A DNA stretch of 32,000 nucleotides from Ktedonobacterales bacterium (GTDB lineage Bacteria > Chloroflexota > Ktedonobacteria > Ktedonobacterales > JADMIN01). Both the position numbers and the translations under genes were made by a program. Numbering within the stretch: the stretch's first letter is position 1; the number at the start of each line of letters is the position of its first letter. The notes under the pieces were generated by a model. That model saw nothing but the letters and a program-made list of their open reading frames with translations. It did no database searches and was not told the DNA's origin. Positions 19,300 through 27,161 of the stretch are shown one piece after another. The stretch is taken from assembly GCA_030167145.1 (NCBI GenBank), contig CP126532.1, positions 4,500,001 through 4,532,000 of the forward strand. Direction: 5' to 3'.

Positions 19300-20316
19300 T
19301 CATCCTTCCGCGCGCTCCGCATAGAATGCCGCGATGGCGCGGGCGTAGCTGGCGATGCTGGCGCACAGTTCCGGTGGCTCCAAGACCTCGACCTCCGCGC
19401 CCATCCCCAGGAGGTTGGTGCGTGCGCCCTCCATCGTCTGGAACATCAGCGGCAGGGTCGTCCAGCCTTCGCCGTCGGGCGGACCGGCCTGGGCGATCAC
19501 ATCATAGATGCTCTCGCCAAAGTAGTGGTGCAGGTTGGGCAGCAGGTCCGGAGCGACGCGCACCAGCACGGGATATTGCCCCCAGCTTGAGACGAATCGG
19601 CTGGCAGACGCGGCCCAGAAGCTCGCCAGGTCGAAGTCACCGGCGCGCTCGAAGCGCGCATCAGCCATCTCTGCCGCACGGATGCGCGAGACCCGGTAGA
19701 CACGCGGCTCATTCCCGTCCGCGCCATTGTCGCTGCCAGCGTCGCCACTGCGCTCGGTCCGCGCTACCAGATACCAGATGCTCGCCTTTGCTACCAGCCC
19801 CAGCGGCTGCATCACGCGCTCCACCACTTCGCCATCACCGCGCCGGTAGGTCACGCGCACACAGCGGTCCTGCCAGAGGGCCTCTTGCAGCAGCCCCAGG
19901 AATGGCGTTTCCTCATCGGTATTGCCCCAGCCCGCTGCGTCCACGTGGATACGGCGGCGCGCGCGTTCGGCATCGGCGCGCAGCCGCGCGGGCAGCGCCG
20001 CCAGCAGCTTTAGCAGCGCGCCTTCCAATGCGCTGCCCATGCCCAGGTCCGCCAGCGGACGTGCTGCGCCGGAGAGGAAGAGCGTCCGTACCTCTAGTTC
20101 GCTCAGGCCGGTTAGGGTGGTGCGGTAGCCTTCGAGCAGGCCACAGCCGCCCGGCCCGCGCTCGGCGTAGACCGGCACGCCCGCTATCCCCAGTGCGCTC
20201 AGGTCGCGGTAGACGGTGCGCTCGGAGACTTCCAGGCGTTCGGCGAGTTCTCTGGCCGTGGTGCGCCCGCGCGCCTGCAAGATCAGCAGCAGAGAGAGCA
20301 GCCGGTCGGCGCGCAT
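19300..20316 (-). CDS. HTH + WYL domain transcriptional regulator (YafY/PafBC-like)
   Basis: N-terminal RLLSLLLILQARGRTTARELAERLEVSERTVYRDLSAL, which is HTH_11/DeoR-like. Central WYL domain VRVTYRRGDGEVVERVMQPLGLVAKASIWYLVA. A C-terminal extension domain follows. GGGAGG lies 8 nt upstream of the ATG. Confidence 0.9.
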   Translation of the reverse strand: MRADRLLSLLLILQARGRTTARELAERLEVSERTVYRDLSALGIAGVPVYAERGPGGCGLLEGYRTTLTGLSELEVRTLFLSGAARPLADLGMGSALEGALLKLLAALPARLRADAERARRRIHVDAAGWGNTDEETPFLGLLQEALWQDRCVRVTYRRGDGEVVERVMQPLGLVAKASIWYLVARTERSGDAGSDNGADGNEPRVYRVSRIRAAEMADARFERAGDFDLASFWAASASRFVSSWGQYPVLVRVAPDLLPNLHHYFGESIYDVIAQAGPPDGEGWTTLPLMFQTMEGARTNLLGMGAEVEVLEPPELCASIASYARAIAAFYAERAEG

Positions 20317-23619: not shown

Positions 23620-24921
23620 CTATGCCTGGCCCGCTGGCACCGCAGTAAGTTCGCGGATGCCCGCCGCGAGCGTATCCAGCGCGGTATTCAGGTCGTCATC
23701 TGCGATCATCAGCGGCGGTTGGATGCGCGCGACATTGCCTTCGGTGCCGCCGACGCCGATCAGCACGCCATGCTCGCGGCAGTAGCGGCGCAGGTCCTTG
23801 GCCAGCGCGGCATCGGGCGTCTTGGCGGCGCGGTCGCGCACCAGCTCAACGCCGATCATCAGACCCAGGCCGCGCACATCGCCGATGGCGGGAAGTTCGG
23901 CTTGGAGCGCGCGCAGCCGTTGCTGCGCAGCGGCGCCTTTGCGTGCGGCTTGCCCCGGCAGGTCGTCGCGGAGCATGACTTCGACGTTGGCGAGTCCGGC
24001 GGCGCAGGCGACGGGATTGCCGCCGAAGGTGCTGAGGTGTTCGCCAGGGCGCAGCGAGTCAGCGATCTCTTCGCGGGCAATAGTGGCGGCGAGCGGGAAG
24101 CCGTCGCCGATGCCTTTGGCCATAACCAGAATGTCTGGCTCAACGCCAAAATGCTCGATGGCGAAGAGTTTGCCGGTGCGGCCAAAGCCGCTCTGCACCT
24201 CATCGGCGATGAGCAGGATGTTGTAGCGGTCGAGGATCTCTTTGACGCGGCGCAGATAGCTGGGCGGTGGGACGATCATGCCGCCTTCGCCCATCACTGG
24301 CTCGATGATGAAGGCCGCGACATCGCCGCTGGTGTGGAAGCGGATGGTGTCCTCGATGGCCTGAGCGGCGCGCTCCGCAACTACTTCGGGGTCATCGCCG
24401 AAGAGCGAGCGATAGGTGAACGGTGCAGGGGAGAAGGCGACGCCGCTACTGTAGGGACCGCCGTGGGTCTTACGACCCATATTGCCAGTGATGCTGAGCG
24501 TACCGAGTGAGCGCCCGTGGAAGCTGCGTTCCAGGGCGATGATCTCGCGCTTGCCGGTGAAGGCTTTGGCGAGTCGCAACGCCGCTTCGATGCCTTCAGC
24601 GCCGCTGTTGGAGAAGAAGGTCTTTTGCAGGCGATCCGGTGTGATTTCGGCGAGGCGTTCGGCCAGGTCGGCCACTGGCTCGACGTAGTAGGTGTATGAG
24701 CTACAGTGGATCAGCTTGTCAATCTGCCGCTTGGCGGCCTCACGAACTTCCGGGTTGCCGTGGCCCGCGTTGACGACGGCGATTCCGGAATAGCAGTCAA
24801 TGTAGCGTTTGCCAGATTCATCGTAGACATAGGCGCCGTCGGCGTGCGTAACCACGAGTGGTTCGAAGCCAGCGATGCTGCTTGTGGTGACGTAGCGTGC
24901 GTACTTTTCACGTGTATCCAT
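23620..24921 (-). CDS. Class III (omega) pyridoxal-phosphate aminotransferase
   Basis: 433 aa. SGIAVVNAGHGNP, FSNSGAEGIEAALRLA, LLIADEVQSGFGRTG, and PLP-lysine context ILVMAKGIGDGFP. AAGGAGG lies 6 nt upstream of the ATG. Confidence 0.9.
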   Translation of the reverse strand: MDTREKYARYVTTSSIAGFEPLVVTHADGAYVYDESGKRYIDCYSGIAVVNAGHGNPEVREAAKRQIDKLIHCSSYTYYVEPVADLAERLAEITPDRLQKTFFSNSGAEGIEAALRLAKAFTGKREIIALERSFHGRSLGTLSITGNMGRKTHGGPYSSGVAFSPAPFTYRSLFGDDPEVVAERAAQAIEDTIRFHTSGDVAAFIIEPVMGEGGMIVPPPSYLRRVKEILDRYNILLIADEVQSGFGRTGKLFAIEHFGVEPDILVMAKGIGDGFPLAATIAREEIADSLRPGEHLSTFGGNPVACAAGLANVEVMLRDDLPGQAARKGAAAQQRLRALQAELPAIGDVRGLGLMIGVELVRDRAAKTPDAALAKDLRRYCREHGVLIGVGGTEGNVARIQPPLMIADDDLNTALDTLAAGIRELTAVPAGQA

Positions 24922-25044
24922 GGATACCTCCTTCTGTTGCCCGCCATTCTACGTGATTGTCATTTTGTGGCGAAAGTGTCGCCGCGTCAAATGTTTCGCG
25001 GCGTGAGTAGGCCAGACTGTCCTGATGGGTGGCAAGGGGTACCG

Positions 25045-25915
25045 GCTTTCGGCCATATGGGGGTGGCCGACTCGGCCATGAATGGCCGGAGCACGGGCGC
25101 GAAGGCATGAATGCCAGGGCATCCCGTAGCGAGGGGAGCGCAGAGTGGCCGAAATGGCCGATGTGCGCGTGGGTGGGGGCAAATGACAAGACATGATCGC
25201 AACTGACGGTAGATTTTTCGCCGTTTTCGCCGCAATTTCGGATATGTGTGGTGGCCGAAATGGCCGATAGTCGCACTCGCTGCTGAAGTATGGCGGTTGC
25301 CGAAGTTGCCGATTCTGCCGATTTGCATGGTGGTGTGAGGGGAAATGACGGGAAGTGGCTGATGATGTCCGGGAAATTTTCGCCGTTTTCGCCGCAATTT
25401 TGTATCGGCGGAGTTGCCGATGTGGCCGATGTGGCCGCAATGGCAGTTGCCGATTCTGCCGATATTTGCATGATGTGAATTGCTGGTGGCCGATGTGGCC
25501 GATATTTGCATGCGCGTATGGAGGGCGAATGGGCTGGTGCAGAAAGCTCTCGGCACGAATGCCGCCGGTACTTCCGTACAAGCGGATCGCGGAGTGGCCG
25601 ATATGGCCGATTTTTGCGGATGGGTGGGGACGAATGACGGGTATTGACTGGACGTTGGGAGAGATTTTTCGCCGTTTTCGCCGCAATTTCGCGTTGTGTG
25701 CGCTCTCGGCCATGAATGGCCGGAGCAGAGGCGATGAGGAATGAATGCCCAGAGGCGCGCCCGTAGGGCGGTGGCCGGTGTGGCCGATAATCGCAGTTGC
25801 CAGAGTTGCCAGAGTTGCCGATTCTGCCGATTTTTGCATTTTGTGGAGTGCCACTGGCCGATATGGCCGATAGTGTACGCACATGCGCGTGTCCTTCGCA
25901 GTGGCGGATGGGTCG
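25045..25915. repeat. Composite non-coding repeat block (9-nt motif runs, 18-, 23-, 24- and 30-nt exact repeats, three about 95-nt composite units)
   Basis: Direct reading. The 18-mer GTGGCCGAAATGGCCGAT occurs at 25145 and 25251. GTTGCCGATTCTGCCGAT occurs at 25305, 25446 and 25814. AGATTTTTCGCCGTTTTCGCCGCAATTTCG occurs at 25211 and 25662, with a core copy at 25377. CTCGGCCATGAATGGCCGGAGCA occurs at 25071 and 25705. See the findings for detail. Confidence 0.85.
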
Positions 25916-26080
25916 TATCTGGGTAGTGTAGCATGCGGAGCGGGTGGGAGTGGATGGTCACGTGGGGACAGATACGGTCGGGTGCGGACACGAGGAGATG
26001 GGGAGTTAAGGAGATGGGGATGAGGTGGGAGGCTGGTGAAAGAGGAGCAAATAGCGCAGTACAGACCCCGATTTCTGGCA

Positions 26081-26108
26081 TTGTGTCGCGTTCGCTTTCT
26101 GGTACAAT
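26081..26108 (+). promoter_or_regulatory. Candidate extended -10 promoter of the isoaspartyl peptidase gene
   Basis: TTGTGT (26081-26086), a 16-nt spacer, then TGG-TACAAT (26100-26108). The 5' UTR carries a CTCGCT-GCGAG-AGCGAG hairpin, and GGGAGG lies 9 nt before the ATG. Confidence 0.4.
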
Positions 26109-26168
26109 ACAAGTCTACAGCTCGCTGCGAGAGCGAGGGGCCAACCTCGACGCGGGAGGATACAGGCA

Positions 26169-27161
26169 ATGGGGCTTGCACTGATTGTTCATGGTGGCGC
26201 GGGGGCGATGGCGCGCGAGCGCTATGACGCGGCGCGCGAGGGCTGCCGTGAGGCAGCGGTGGCGGGCTGGCGCGTGCTGCGCGCGGGCGGGTCGGCGCTG
26301 GATGCGGTGGAGAAGGCGATCAGCGTGCTCGAAAACAATCCGGGATTCAATGCCGGGACGGGCGGCGTGCTGACGACGGATGGACGGGCGCAACTGGACG
26401 CGGGCATCATGGACGGCGAGACGCTGGATGCGGGCGCAATCGCGGGTGTGGAGCGCATCAAGAATCCGATTCAGGTTGCGCGCAGGGTACTCGCCAGCCC
26501 GCATGTGCTGCTGATCGGCGCGGGCGCGGAGAGCTTCGCCACGGATTCGGGCATTGCGCTATGTGATCCGAGCGAACTGGTGACCCCCGCGCAGTATGCG
26601 CGCTGGCAGCGCGGCTATGGCCTGGGCGATGATGTGAATGTGGGTGACCGGGTGGATGTGGGCGCGGGCCTGGGCGCGATTGACATGGAAGCGGAGCCAG
26701 GGACGCGGAATGGCGCGTATGCGGATGACGAGCCGGTTCATGCCGATGCGCACAAGCATGGCACGGTGGGGGCGGTGGCGGTGGATGCGCGCGGTGTGGT
26801 GGCGGCGGGGGCTTCGACGGGGGGAATCGCGGCCAAGCATCCAGGGCGGGTGGGCGATACGCCGATTGTGGGTGCGGGCTTCTATGCAGAAAATGGGCTG
26901 GGCGGCGTCTCCAGCACGGGACATGGCGAAGACTTCATCCGCCTGCTGCTGGCGCGGCGTGCGCTGGACTACATCGCGGCGGGCAGTTCGGCGCAGGCGG
27001 CGGCGACCAAAGCGATGCAACTGCTGAGCAGGCGGGTGGGTGGCAGCGGTGGGCTGATATTGCTGGATGGACAAGGCCGTGTCGGCTACGCCCGGAACTC
27101 GCCGACGATGGCGCACGCTTTCATCGTCGAGGGGATGGATGTGCCGTTCGCTGGGGTGTGA
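26169..27161 (+). CDS. Isoaspartyl peptidase / L-asparaginase (Ntn-hydrolase, asparaginase_2 family)
   Basis: 330 aa. LIVHGGAG, NPGFNAGTGGVLT, autoprocessing site HGTVGAVA, GRVGDTPIVGAG and TGHGEDFIR. Confidence 0.9.
   Translation: MGLALIVHGGAGAMARERYDAAREGCREAAVAGWRVLRAGGSALDAVEKAISVLENNPGFNAGTGGVLTTDGRAQLDAGIMDGETLDAGAIAGVERIKNPIQVARRVLASPHVLLIGAGAESFATDSGIALCDPSELVTPAQYARWQRGYGLGDDVNVGDRVDVGAGLGAIDMEAEPGTRNGAYADDEPVHADAHKHGTVGAVAVDARGVVAAGASTGGIAAKHPGRVGDTPIVGAGFYAENGLGGVSSTGHGEDFIRLLLARRALDYIAAGSSAQAAATKAMQLLSRRVGGSGGLILLDGQGRVGYARNSPTMAHAFIVEGMDVPFAGV

What the first reader, a model, noticed from the sequence alone, without database searches (positions are those of the whole stretch)
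25145..25691. Three composite units: conserved flanks in a fixed 33-nt register around a divergent 27-nt core
Aligning the three units by eye gives this layout:
- a pair of 9-mers
- TGCG or TGCA
- the G-run TGGGTGGGG (GTGAGGGG in unit 2)
- (A/G)AATGAC
- 27 nt of variable sequence
- TTTTCGCCGTTTTCGCCGCAATTT

AATGAC starts at 25182, 25344 and 25633. The T-tract core starts at 25215, 25377 and 25666. The offset is exactly 33 nt in all three units.

The 27 nt in between match at only about 12-13 of 27 positions pairwise:
- unit 1: AAGACATGATCGCAACTGACGGTAGAT
- unit 2: GGGAAGTGGCTGATGATGTCCGGGAAA
- unit 3: GGGTATTGACTGGACGTTGGGAGAGAT

Near-identical flanks, a length-conserved spacer and free spacer sequence are the signature of two functional sites held about three helical turns apart. 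They would also fit an RNA with conserved arms and a variable loop. Neutral decay of a duplicated segment would not produce this. I could not find a convincing sigma-70, sigma-54 or ECF promoter that is conserved across all three copies.
Basis: seen in the sequence. Interest (0 to 1): 0.7.

Follow-up and report, generated by a model that had tools for sequence, protein, structure and literature searches.

The report
Orphan 9-bp repeat mosaic, three modules
The three units are real, but they are modules of a larger, one-stranded mosaic of 9-base repeats lying between two ordinary metabolic genes of a soil Ktedonobacterales bacterium; it most resembles a multi-site protein-binding (iteron-like) array, and its binding partner and function remain unknown.

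Summary
The 24-mer TTTTCGCCGTTTTCGCCGCAATTT occurs three times exactly, at 25215, 25377 and 25666. Each copy lies 33 nt after an AATGAC, and the 27 nt between match at only 10-12 positions.

The units are not free-standing. They sit in a mosaic of about 850 bp (25046-25892) inside a 1.25 kb gap between divergent aminotransferase and asparaginase genes. The mosaic holds about 24 NNKGCCGAW 9-mers, all on the + strand. The 24-mer itself is two more 9-bp GCCG repeats and carries three T-tracts spaced 10-12 bp apart. Left-flank-only copies also exist.

- No support was found for an RNA, a promoter, a coding region or a CRISPR array.
- No homologue of the unit was found in any collection searched.
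- Orthologous loci at 77-80% protein identity lack the mosaic. A close relative shows rapid indel turnover next to it.
- One 9-mer type (GTTGCCGAT, in tandem) is identical to putative origin iterons found here next to phage primase-helicase genes. No such gene lies in the window, and a second shared motif did not reach significance.

Best reading (confidence about 0.4): an iteron-like protein-assembly array remodelled by unequal recombination. Main rival: a selfish or neutral repeat mosaic.

The parts
24946..24990 (-). Promoter-like sites for the aminotransferase operon (TTGACG-17-CAAAAT and TCGCCA-16-TAGAAT). They lie outside the repeat mosaic.
   Evidence: The first ~115 nt upstream of the gene are about 94% identical in the close relative L130, although 4-fold sites are 20.6% diverged.
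25046..25115 (+). Left boundary module. It holds 9-mer cores in both orientations (TCGGCCAT / GTGGCCGAC), the palindrome CGGCCATGAATGGCCG (25073-25088) and the hairpin GGCATGAATGCC (25104-25115). This is copy 1 of a 45-nt repeat.
   Evidence: D7, D11, I14. The hairpin plus the adjacent 5 nt (GGCATTCATGCCTTCGC on the aminotransferase-coding strand) is kept intact in relative L130.
25145..25238 (+). Unit 1. 9-mer pair GTGGCCGAA ATGGCCGAT (25145-25162); TGCGCG plus G-run plus AAATGAC (25164-25187); variable 27 nt (25188-25214); invariant 24-mer (25215-25238).
25251..25268 (+). 9-mer pair GTGGCCGAA ATGGCCGAT, 12 nt after the unit 1 core.
25296..25400 (+). Unit 2. 9-mer triple GTTGCCGAA GTTGCCGAT TCTGCCGAT (25296-25322); TTGCATGG plus G-run plus AAATGAC (to 25349); variable 27 nt (25350-25376); invariant 24-mer (25377-25400).
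25413..25463 (+). Two 9-mer arrays. GTTGCCGAT GTGGCCGAT GTGGCCGCA (25413-25439) and GTTGCCGAT TCTGCCGAT (25446-25463).
25486..25531 (+). Partial unit with the left module only. GTGGCCGAT GTGGCCGAT ATTTGC ATGCGCGTATGGAGGGCGAATGG. There is no 24-mer after it.
   Evidence: nhmmer hit to profile positions 1-43 only. ATGCGCGTAWGGAG occurs only once in the window.
25594..25689 (+). Unit 3. 9-mer pair GTGGCCGAT ATGGCCGAT (25594-25611); TTTTGCGG plus G-run plus GAATGAC (to 25638); variable 27 nt (25639-25665); invariant 24-mer (25666-25689).
25705..25749 (+). Copy 2 of the palindrome/hairpin module (CGGCCATGAATGGCCG ... GGAATGAATGCC), 634 nt after copy 1.
   Evidence: D7, 87% identity.
25771..25871 (+). 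Further 9-mer arrays with no 24-mer. GTGGCCGGT GTGGCCGAT (25771-25788); GTTGCCAGA x2 GTTGCCGAT TCTGCCGAT (25796-25831); CTGGCCGAT ATGGCCGAT (25854-25871).
   Evidence: The sequence from 25806 onward is confirmed by the independent contig L115.
25873..25892 (.). Perfect 20-nt alternating purine-pyrimidine run, GTGTACGCACATGCGCGTGT, directly after the last 9-mer pair. It is the longest such run in the window.

Best explanation
The three units are the spacer modules of an iteron-like array that binds protein at many sites.

What is shown.
- A stretch of about 850 bp (25046-25892) between two divergently transcribed housekeeping genes is built almost wholly from 9-bp GCCG-containing repeats. There are about 24 copies of NNKGCCGAW, in runs of 2-4, all on the + strand.
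- A few inverted copies form palindromes at 25073 and 25707.
- Each unit reads: 9-mer run, then TGCR/G-run/RAATGAC box, then 27 variable nt, then the invariant 24-mer, then 12 nt, then the next 9-mer run.
- The 24-mer is two more 9-bp repeats (TTTTCGCCG x2, then CAATTT). It carries three A/T-tracts whose starts are 10-12 bp apart.

What is inferred.
- A sequence-specific DNA-binding protein, not identified and not encoded next to the array, occupies the tandem 9-mers cooperatively.
- The 24-mer is a second kind of site, an intrinsic bend, or both. It must keep a fixed distance from the AATGAC box and from the next 9-mer run. This would explain why lengths (27 nt and 12 nt) are kept while sequence is free.
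- The mosaic grows and shrinks by unequal recombination between 9-mer runs. That process duplicates and deletes the modules between arrays.

What the complex does is not established. It could regulate the flanking genes, titrate an initiator, or be an origin- or centromere-like remnant.
For: - The 24-mer is exact in three copies, against a shuffle expectation of 0.00.
- GKKGCCGAT gives 11 hits in the window against 2.0 +/- 1.4 expected. Nine of them lie in 25305-25822 and all nine are on the + strand. Searches give the full catalogue of 9-mers in register.
- TRF reports period 9 at seven places in the region, including inside each 24-mer.
- Conservation is very uneven: 24/24 and 6/6 identity next to 10-12/27. 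The neutral yardstick from the nearest relative is 20.6% divergence at 4-fold sites. The unit cores are therefore far older than the strain split, or have been replaced, yet the 24-mer has not changed.
- A/T-tracts of 4 nt or more in the mosaic lie mostly in the three 24-mers (9 of 13). Their starts are 25214/25224/25234, 25374/25386/25396 and 25665/25675/25685. By established knowledge of phased A-tracts, such phasing bends DNA.
- The same half-site occurs in direct runs and in palindromes. This is typical of protein sites.
- The region is not coding and not a known RNA. A six-frame translation found no relative among 5.8 billion proteins. Rfam gave nothing.
- Precedent found here: contiguous 9-bp tandem runs of the identical 9-mer GTTGCCGA(T/A), with inverted copies, fill the non-coding gap just after VapE-like primase-helicase genes in at least 8 groups of phage contigs. 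That is where SaPI Rep proteins have their iterons (PMC9371898).
Against: - No binding protein is identified. No initiator, partition or phage gene lies in the 32 kb window or in the 5 kb beyond it.
- The array is lineage-specific. Asparaginase loci at 78% identity and aminotransferase operons at 77% identity have neither the synteny nor the repeats.
- In the 97%-identical relative, the sequence next to the array turns over by indels faster than 4-fold sites diverge. This fits weakly constrained repeat DNA as well.
- Only the GCCGAW core is constant in the window, and positions 1-3 vary (GTG, ATG, GTT, TCT). The phage iterons keep GTTGCCG instead. The specificity may therefore differ, and the identity of one variant may be chance.
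- Higher-order 18-mers recur exactly. This can be explained by segmental duplication without selection on each 9-mer.
- With only three units there is no statistical power on the register.
Confidence: 0.4

Rival explanations
1. A selfish or neutral repeat mosaic. A lineage-specific intergenic repeat cluster, comparable to pneumococcal BOX, enterobacterial BIME or cyanobacterial STRR elements, arises by slippage and unequal recombination between 9-mer runs. The 24-mer stays identical through gene conversion or recent spread, not through a DNA-protein function at this locus.
For: - The mosaic is absent from orthologous loci.
- Indels turn over rapidly in the close relative.
- The architecture is modular, with exact higher-order 18-, 30- and 60-nt repeats and partial units.
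- Hairpin and palindrome modules are present.
- Two independent short-read assemblies end at the borders of the region: L130 ends near window 25117 and L115 starts at 25806.
- No associated gene is present.
Against: - No second cluster occurs in the 37 kb of this genome that could be read.
- A 20-mer from the core has no related hit among 241 million metagenome records. Plasmid and phage blastn searches found nothing.
- Conversion tracts would be expected to homogenise the neighbouring 27 nt as well, and they have not.
- All copies sit on one strand, whereas REP/BIME units alternate in orientation.
Confidence: 0.3
2. A specialisation of the best explanation. The array is an orphan set of phage- or satellite-type replication iterons. 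It would be either a remnant of an element that carried a VapE-like primase-helicase, or a chromosomal sink that binds such an initiator encoded elsewhere.
For: - GTTGCCGAT and GTTGCCGAA, in tandem at 9 bp, are identical to the repeats found immediately after VapE-like primase-helicase ORFs and before VRR-NUC plus SNF2 genes in contig groups L138, L169/L215/L282, L199, L207, L245 and L248. Similar arrays follow a helicase-like C-terminus in L178/L230 and lie in the non-coding region of L201. In L238 the same repeats lie between a primase and PolA.
- Sister phages carry other 9-mers at the same place, which is what initiator-specific iterons would look like.
- The paradigm is the SaPI Rep protein with iterons downstream of rep (PMC9371898).
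- Both the window and these phages have alternating purine-pyrimidine blocks after the runs.
- ATGCGCGTAWGGAG occurs once in the window, inside the mosaic, and is present in L284 (L285 carries it with a 1-nt insertion).
Against: - No primase-helicase or any phage gene is in the window. tblastn gives E>2.
- Only 7 of about 24 9-mers are of the GTT type.
- The commoner GTGGCCGAT/ATGGCCGAT pairs give only coding hits in viral contigs. The exact window 18-mer GTTGCCGATTCTGCCGAT gives only chance hits.
- A profile of the phage 'box' does not hit the window significantly, E 0.5-3.
- There is no AT-rich centre. The lowest-GC 30-mer of the gap is the aminotransferase promoter.
- The runs are not arranged in convergent halves.
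- The match could be a coincidence, given the many iteron families in 2.9 million viral contigs.
Confidence: 0.12
3. A specialisation of the best explanation. The array is an operator for the divergent aminotransferase/aldehyde-dehydrogenase operon and the asparaginase gene. It would be bound by the WYL regulator (19300-20316, - strand) or by another transcription factor.
For: - The mosaic lies between two divergent promoters of nitrogen-catabolic genes.
- An HTH_11-WYL-WCX gene lies at the distal end of the operon.
Against: - The repeats start more than 200 nt from the aminotransferase start codon and end about 275 nt before the asparaginase start codon. They do not overlap the promoter-like sites.
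- Orthologous operons have short upstream regions, no 9-mers and no WYL gene.
- About 24 sites over 800 bp is far more than a usual operator.
- To my knowledge, no known WYL regulator uses tandem repeats with 9-bp periodicity.
Confidence: 0.08
4. Each unit encodes a small structured RNA, or acts as a single-stranded hairpin, with conserved arms (G-run/AAATGAC pairing with the T-tract 24-mer) and a variable loop.
For: - RNAalifold draws a 17-pair flank-to-flank helix on the + strand, with 92% of cells paired.
- Unit 2 adopts it as its minimum-free-energy fold.
Against: - z-scores range from -0.84 to +1.22 for all units, at all three lengths tested and on both strands.
- Units 1 and 3 fold differently.
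- The flank-core duplex energy ranks only in the top 5-16% of 26-nt windows on the window's + strand.
- Covariation does not exceed the shuffles: 255 of 500 shuffles reach the observed score.
- There is no Rfam hit. No promoter or terminator is conserved with the units.
Confidence: 0.04

Closest known systems
Iterons of SaPI/PICI-type and P4-type origins, bound by the C-terminal winged-helix domain of a primase-helicase (Rep) (PMC9371898); plasmid iteron and incompatibility arrays
   Same: Both have many short direct repeats, contiguous or closely spaced, with a few inverted copies, in non-coding DNA. Copy number and arrangement evolve quickly while the core motif is kept.
   Different: - Known iterons lie immediately downstream of, or next to, their initiator gene and flank an AT-rich unwinding region with convergent halves.
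- Here there is no initiator gene within 32 kb and no AT-rich centre, and nearly all copies point one way.
- The flanking genes are housekeeping genes.
GTTGCCGA(T/A) arrays after VapE-like primase-helicase genes in IMG/VR phage contigs
   Same: - The 9-mer is identical, with the same 9-bp tandem spacing.
- The same A/T alternation occurs at position 9.
- An alternating purine-pyrimidine block lies nearby.
   Different: - The phage arrays keep GTTGCCG invariant and hold 5-15 copies in both orientations.
- The window keeps only KGCCGAW and is dominated by GTGGCCGAT and ATGGCCGAT.
- The window also has the 24-mer modules, which the phage regions lack.
Modular intergenic repeats: pneumococcal BOX (boxA-boxB(n)-boxC), E. 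coli BIME/REP, cyanobacterial STRR (from my own knowledge)
   Same: All are mosaics of short modules, with a variable number of internal modules and hairpin-forming parts. They are lineage-specific, fast-evolving and intergenic.
   Different: Those families are defined by tens to hundreds of dispersed copies per genome, and REPs alternate in orientation. Dispersal could not be tested here, and orientation is uniform.
Plasmid R1 parC and similar centromere arrays bound by ParR or omega-type proteins (from my own knowledge)
   Same: Both have two blocks of short contiguous direct repeats on either side of a unique core, and binding is thought to be cooperative.
   Different: There are no par genes nearby. 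The repeat length and sequence are unrelated, and the setting is chromosomal housekeeping DNA.

Membership tests
Iteron-type replication origin (SaPI/PICI, P4, plasmid) | Multiple short direct repeats of one motif in non-coding DNA | tested here: met
   About 24 NNKGCCGAW 9-mers lie in 25145-25871.
Iteron-type replication origin (SaPI/PICI, P4, plasmid) | Cognate initiator gene (Rep or primase-helicase) adjacent to the repeats | tested here: not met
   Pfam annotation of the window's main genes shows only housekeeping functions. tblastn with phage primase-helicases gives E>2.
Iteron-type replication origin (SaPI/PICI, P4, plasmid) | AT-rich unwinding region flanked by iterons in opposite orientation | tested here: not met
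   The lowest-GC 30-mer of the gap is the aminotransferase promoter. Inside the mosaic the lowest windows are the 50% GC 24-mers. All runs are on the + strand apart from two palindromes.
Iteron-type replication origin (SaPI/PICI, P4, plasmid) | Origin activity or initiator binding | not testable with these tools
   This needs EMSA, 2D gels or marker-frequency analysis.
REP/BIME/BOX-like dispersed intergenic repeats | Many dispersed copies across the genome | not testable with these tools
   Only 37 kb of the 5.07 Mb genome could be read, and it holds one cluster.
REP/BIME/BOX-like dispersed intergenic repeats | Modular composition with hairpin-forming units | tested here: met
   Palindrome/hairpin modules lie at 25071-25115 and 25705-25749. 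Modules recombine in different orders.
CRISPR array | Identical repeats at a regular period, unique spacers of near-constant length, cas genes or a leader nearby | tested here: not met
   Unit spacing is 162 and 289 nt. The sequence between the variable cores is itself variable. No cas genes are present. The three 27-nt cores have no match in viral contigs.
Structured non-coding RNA | Thermodynamic stability above background, covariation, or an Rfam match | tested here: not met
   z-scores range from -0.84 to +1.22. Covariation is no better than in shuffles. Rfam gives nothing.
Sigma-70 promoter cassette | -35 and -10 hexamers at 16-18 nt, conserved in all copies | tested here: not met
   The scan finds promoter-like sites only at 24946-24990. 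Reading by eye, the TTGCAT and TGAC candidates have no -10 element.
Conserved operator of the aminotransferase operon or asparaginase gene | Motif retained upstream of orthologous genes | tested here: not met
   Loci L125-L129 and L131-L134 have no 9-mer runs and no 24-mer.

The most novel reading that the evidence does not exclude
The mosaic is a chromosomal decoy. It would be an orphan array of iterons of several specificities (GTT-, GTG-, ATG- and TCT-GCCGAT) that soaks up the replication initiators of invading phages, satellites or plasmids. Those invaders would include the VapE-type primase-helicases that appear to use GTTGCCGAT. The mechanism would be plasmid-style iteron incompatibility used as host defence. 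The bent 24-mer modules would help to wrap the bound protein or pair ('handcuff') it between arrays.
Probability: 0.05. Interest if true: 0.85.

Novelty: new variant of a known kind. Interest (0 to 1): 0.45.

Why it matters
If the array binds a protein, it would be an iteron-like assembly site with no adjacent initiator gene, sitting among housekeeping genes of a poorly studied phylum (Chloroflexota, Ktedonobacterales). That would raise the question of what such orphan arrays do: titrate an initiator, act as an incompatibility-type defence, or organise local chromosome architecture.

Independently of the window, the survey turned up a widespread and apparently undescribed iteron family, GTTGCCGAT. 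Sister phages carry other 9-mers at the same place, so the motif appears to differ by lineage. It lies just after phage VapE-like primase-helicase genes, which gives a concrete and testable origin prediction for many uncultured phages.

If the mosaic is only repeat DNA, it is an ordinary lineage-specific curiosity.

Tried and rejected
1. Genome-collection scan with the 18-mer TTTTCGCCGTTTTCGCCG. None of them carries the 24-mer.
2. Metagenome scan with the 20-mer TTCGCCGTTTTCGCCGCAAT. All nine hits are unrelated sequence, mostly coding. The source contig is not in that collection.
3. Distant blastn of the whole gap against plasmids and phages. No hits.
4. Rfam search at gathering thresholds and at E<=1. 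No hits.
5. Six-frame concatenated translation of the mosaic against 5.8 billion proteins. No hits, so the region is not coding. This also failed as a way to find other copies.
6. Exact look-up of the two JGI-called ORFs inside the mosaic. Only the source contig was returned.
7. Orthologous loci, found through the asparaginase and the aminotransferase. Synteny and repeats are absent at 77-80% identity. The only close relative (L130) ends 195 nt upstream of the gene.
8. Viral-contig scans.
   - The 24-mer core gives no hit.
   - The three variable cores give no hit, so a spacer-like reading is rejected.
   - GTGGCCGAT-type pairs give only coding hits.
   - The exact 18-mer GTTGCCGATTCTGCCGAT gives only chance hits.
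9. A profile of the phage 'box' searched against the window. Not significant.
10. Sigma-54 reading of TGGCCG-N4-TTGC. The spacing is one base short of the TGGCAC-N5-TTGC consensus (by eye), so I rejected it.
11. A leader peptide starting at the ATG inside AATGAC. The ORFs are 7, 5 and 58 codons long, so this is not conserved and I rejected it.
12. A DnaA-box or oriC reading. No TTATCCACA-like boxes are visible and no dnaA context is present.
13. A literature search for the 9-mer strings returned only primer sequences.
Full report
CONTEXT

The window is positions 4,500,001-4,532,000 of a 5.07 Mb contig of a Ktedonobacterales (Chloroflexota) metagenome-assembled genome. Locus L114 is identical to the window from 16169 onward. 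A source names the asparaginase as coming from 'Ktedonobacterales bacterium'.

The finding lies in a 1.25 kb non-coding gap (24922-26168).
- On one side is a class-III aminotransferase gene (23620-24921, - strand). It heads an operon with two aldehyde dehydrogenases, and an HTH_11-WYL-WCX regulator lies at its distal end (19300-20316, - strand).
- On the other side is an isoaspartyl-peptidase/asparaginase gene (26169-27161, + strand), followed by valyl-tRNA synthetase.
- All annotated genes in the window are housekeeping genes. No phage, plasmid or transposon genes are present.

THE OBSERVATION

It is correct.
- TTTTCGCCGTTTTCGCCGCAATTT occurs three times exactly, at 25215, 25377 and 25666. 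It occurs nowhere else in the window even with 3 mismatches allowed. The shuffle expectation is 0.00.
- AATGAC begins 33 nt upstream of the 24-mer in each case.
- The 27-nt cores match at 10, 12 and 12 positions. Random 27-mer pairs from the same region match at 7.2 +/- 2.6.
- The left flank (9-mer pair, TGCR, G-run) is only 33-60% identical in ungapped register and has a 2-nt length difference.
- Units 1 and 2 also keep an equal 12-nt spacer of divergent sequence between the 24-mer and the next 9-mer pair.

WHAT THE UNITS ARE PART OF

The units are embedded in a mosaic of about 850 bp (25046-25892).
- Counting in register, about 24 copies of NNKGCCGAW lie between 25145 and 25871. The forms are GTGGCCGAW, ATGGCCGAT, GTTGCCGAW and TCTGCCGAT, with a few variants. 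They occur in contiguous runs of 2-4, and every one is on the + strand.
- The 24-mer is itself two further 9-bp repeats, TTTTCGCCG x2. TRF reports period 9 inside each core.
- Inverted copies of the 9-mer core form the palindrome CGGCCATGAATGGCCG at 25073 and 25707. Each belongs to a 45-nt module that also holds the hairpin GGCATGAATGCC.
- Larger blocks recur exactly or nearly so. GTTGCCGATTCTGCCGAT occurs three times. There is a 60-nt repeat at 85% identity and a 30-nt exact repeat.
- Left-flank-only partial units occur at 25486-25531, 25446-25469 and 25814-25838.
- The pattern is what unequal recombination between 9-mer runs would produce: modules between arrays are duplicated, lost and reshuffled.
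- A/T-tracts of 4 nt or more in the mosaic lie mostly in the three 24-mers (9 of 13). Each 24-mer has three tracts whose starts are 10-12 bp apart. By established knowledge of phased A-tracts, this should bend the DNA.

IS IT UNDER CONSTRAINT?

- The nearest relative (L130) has an aminotransferase 97% identical in protein and 20.6% diverged at 4-fold sites. Its first ~115 nt upstream of the gene are about 94% identical to the window. Beyond that the sequence is full of indels, yet the hairpin and its 5 adjacent bases (17 nt) are intact.
- That contig ends about 20 nt before the position where the first 9-mer run would be expected.
- The region therefore turns over quickly but contains conserved islands.
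- Within the window, the 27-nt cores are close to saturation while the adjacent 24-mer is unchanged in three copies. Uniform drift cannot give this result. Selection or a very local homogenising process is required.

WHAT IT IS NOT

- Not coding. A six-frame translation of the mosaic has no relative among 5.8 billion proteins.
- Not a known RNA.
- Probably not a structured RNA at all.
  - z-scores range from -0.84 to +1.22 on both strands and at three lengths.
  - RNAalifold pairs the two flanks. However, only unit 2 uses that helix as its best fold.
  - The flank-core duplex energy ranks only in the top 5-16% of + strand windows.
  - Covariation does not exceed the shuffles.
- Not a promoter cassette.
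- Not CRISPR-like. Spacing is irregular, no cas genes are present, and the cores have no match in viral contigs.
- Not a conserved operator. Asparaginase loci at 78% identity and aminotransferase operons at 77% identity have different neighbours, short upstream regions and no such repeats.
- The 24-mer core has no related hit in 241 million metagenome records or in viral contigs. The whole gap has no blastn hit in plasmids or phages.

A LEAD FROM PHAGES

A viral-contig scan for 9-mer pairs gave mostly coding chance hits. It also gave at least 8 distinct groups of contigs in which the identical 9-mer GTTGCCGA(T/A) forms contiguous 9-bp tandem runs, with inverted ATCGGCAAC copies, in a non-coding gap.
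- In six groups (L138, L169/L215/L282, L199, L207, L245, L248) the gap lies immediately after a VapE-like primase-helicase ORF (PF05272, phrog_256). The first repeat overlaps the last codons...RVAD. The gap ends before VRR-NUC and SNF2 genes. L178/L230 shows a similar array after a helicase-like C-terminus, and L201 in its non-coding region.
- In a 70% GC contig (L238) the same repeats lie between a different primase and DNA polymerase A.
- Sister phages ('Ca. Heliusvirales') carry other 9-mers at the same place.
- This position and layout match the published SaPI paradigm. There, the winged-helix C-terminus of Rep binds iterons located just downstream of rep (PMC9371898).
- Tandem GTTGCCGAT is therefore very probably a replication-initiator iteron in those phages. 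This is inferred from position only.

How far the lead reaches the window is uncertain.

For a link:
- The 9-mer and its tandem spacing are identical.
- Both have alternating purine-pyrimidine blocks beside the runs. The longest such run in the window, 20 nt, is at 25873-25892.
- ATGCGCGTAWGGAG occurs once in the window, at 25510, and is present in L284, with a 1-nt-longer variant in L285.

Against a link:
- No initiator gene lies nearby.
- Only 7 of about 24 repeats are of the GTT type.
- The window conserves KGCCGAW, not GTTGCCG.
- The commoner GTGGCCGAT pairs and the window's own 18-mer give only chance or coding hits in viral contigs.
- A profile of the phage box is not significant in the window, E 0.5-3.
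- The mosaic has no AT-rich centre.

I treat the link as a lead with a probability of about 0.1-0.15. It is not a classification.

VERDICT

The RNA alternative and the WYL suggestion have no support.

- The most likely reading (about 0.4) is an iteron-like array that binds protein at many sites. The three units are its bent spacer modules, and unequal recombination remodels it.
- A selfish or neutral repeat mosaic is the main rival (about 0.3). It cannot be excluded, because the rest of the genome could not be scanned.
- The single most decisive missing piece is a genome-wide count of these motifs in the source contig.
- Interest is moderate. The structure is real and unusual, with no homologue found, but nothing yet ties it to a function.

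Noticed in passing
IMG/VR loci L138, L169/L215/L282, L178/L230, L199, L201, L207, L245, L248, L238; also L284 and L285: A widespread family of putative phage origin iterons. Tandem 9-mers GTTGCCGA(T/A), with inverted copies, lie in the non-coding gap right after VapE-like primase-helicase genes, and the first repeat overlaps the last codons (...RVAD). Related 'Ca. Heliusvirales' phages carry different 9-mers (ATTGTTTCC, GGTTTCCSA) at the same position. I found no description of this in the literature searches I ran.
   Followed up: partly
window 24987-25958: The + strand has no TCA, TTA or CTA for 971 nt, so all three minus-strand reading frames are open. A first-order Markov model expects 13.6 +/- 3.6 such trinucleotides, and the next-longest gap in the window is 297 nt. 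This is probably a by-product of the limited repeat vocabulary and the G/T-rich strand bias. The translations have no homologues.
   Followed up: partly
window 25873-25892 and 25507-25520: A perfect 20-nt alternating purine-pyrimidine run (GTGTACGCACATGCGCGTGT) and a 14-nt one (TGCATGCGCGTATG). These are two of the five longest such runs in the 32 kb window, and both directly follow 9-mer pairs.
   Followed up: partly
window 25900-26050: A G-rich stretch with repeated GGAGATGGGGA and GGGTGGGAG motifs lies between the mosaic and the asparaginase promoter-like TGGTACAAT (26100-26108). It could form G-quadruplexes. This was not analysed.
   Followed up: no
window 25481-25488: An exact E. coli Chi octamer, GCTGGTGG, overlaps a 9-mer run. 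This is probably coincidence.
   Followed up: no
L130 1-195 compared with window 24922-25145: In a relative whose aminotransferase is 97% identical, the first ~115 nt upstream of the gene are more conserved (about 94%) than 4-fold sites (79%). Farther upstream the sequence is riddled with indels, but the hairpin plus its 5 adjacent bases (17 nt; GGCATTCATGCCTTCGC on the aminotransferase-coding strand) survive intact. The contig ends just before the position where the first 9-mer run is expected.
   Followed up: yes
L129 5538-5590: A Ktedonobacterales relative carries an in-frame 9-nt tandem repeat (CGGATGGAG x5) inserted in a flavin-monooxygenase-like gene. 9-nt tandem expansions also occur in coding DNA in this group.
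   Followed up: partly
window 19300-20316 (- strand), and L131-L134: The WYL regulator lies at the end of the aminotransferase operon in this genome only. Orthologous operons at 77% identity instead carry a 143-aa and a 645-aa gene with no Pfam match. An AccI-like restriction-modification pair lies upstream in three of the four loci (L131, L132, L134).
   Followed up: no
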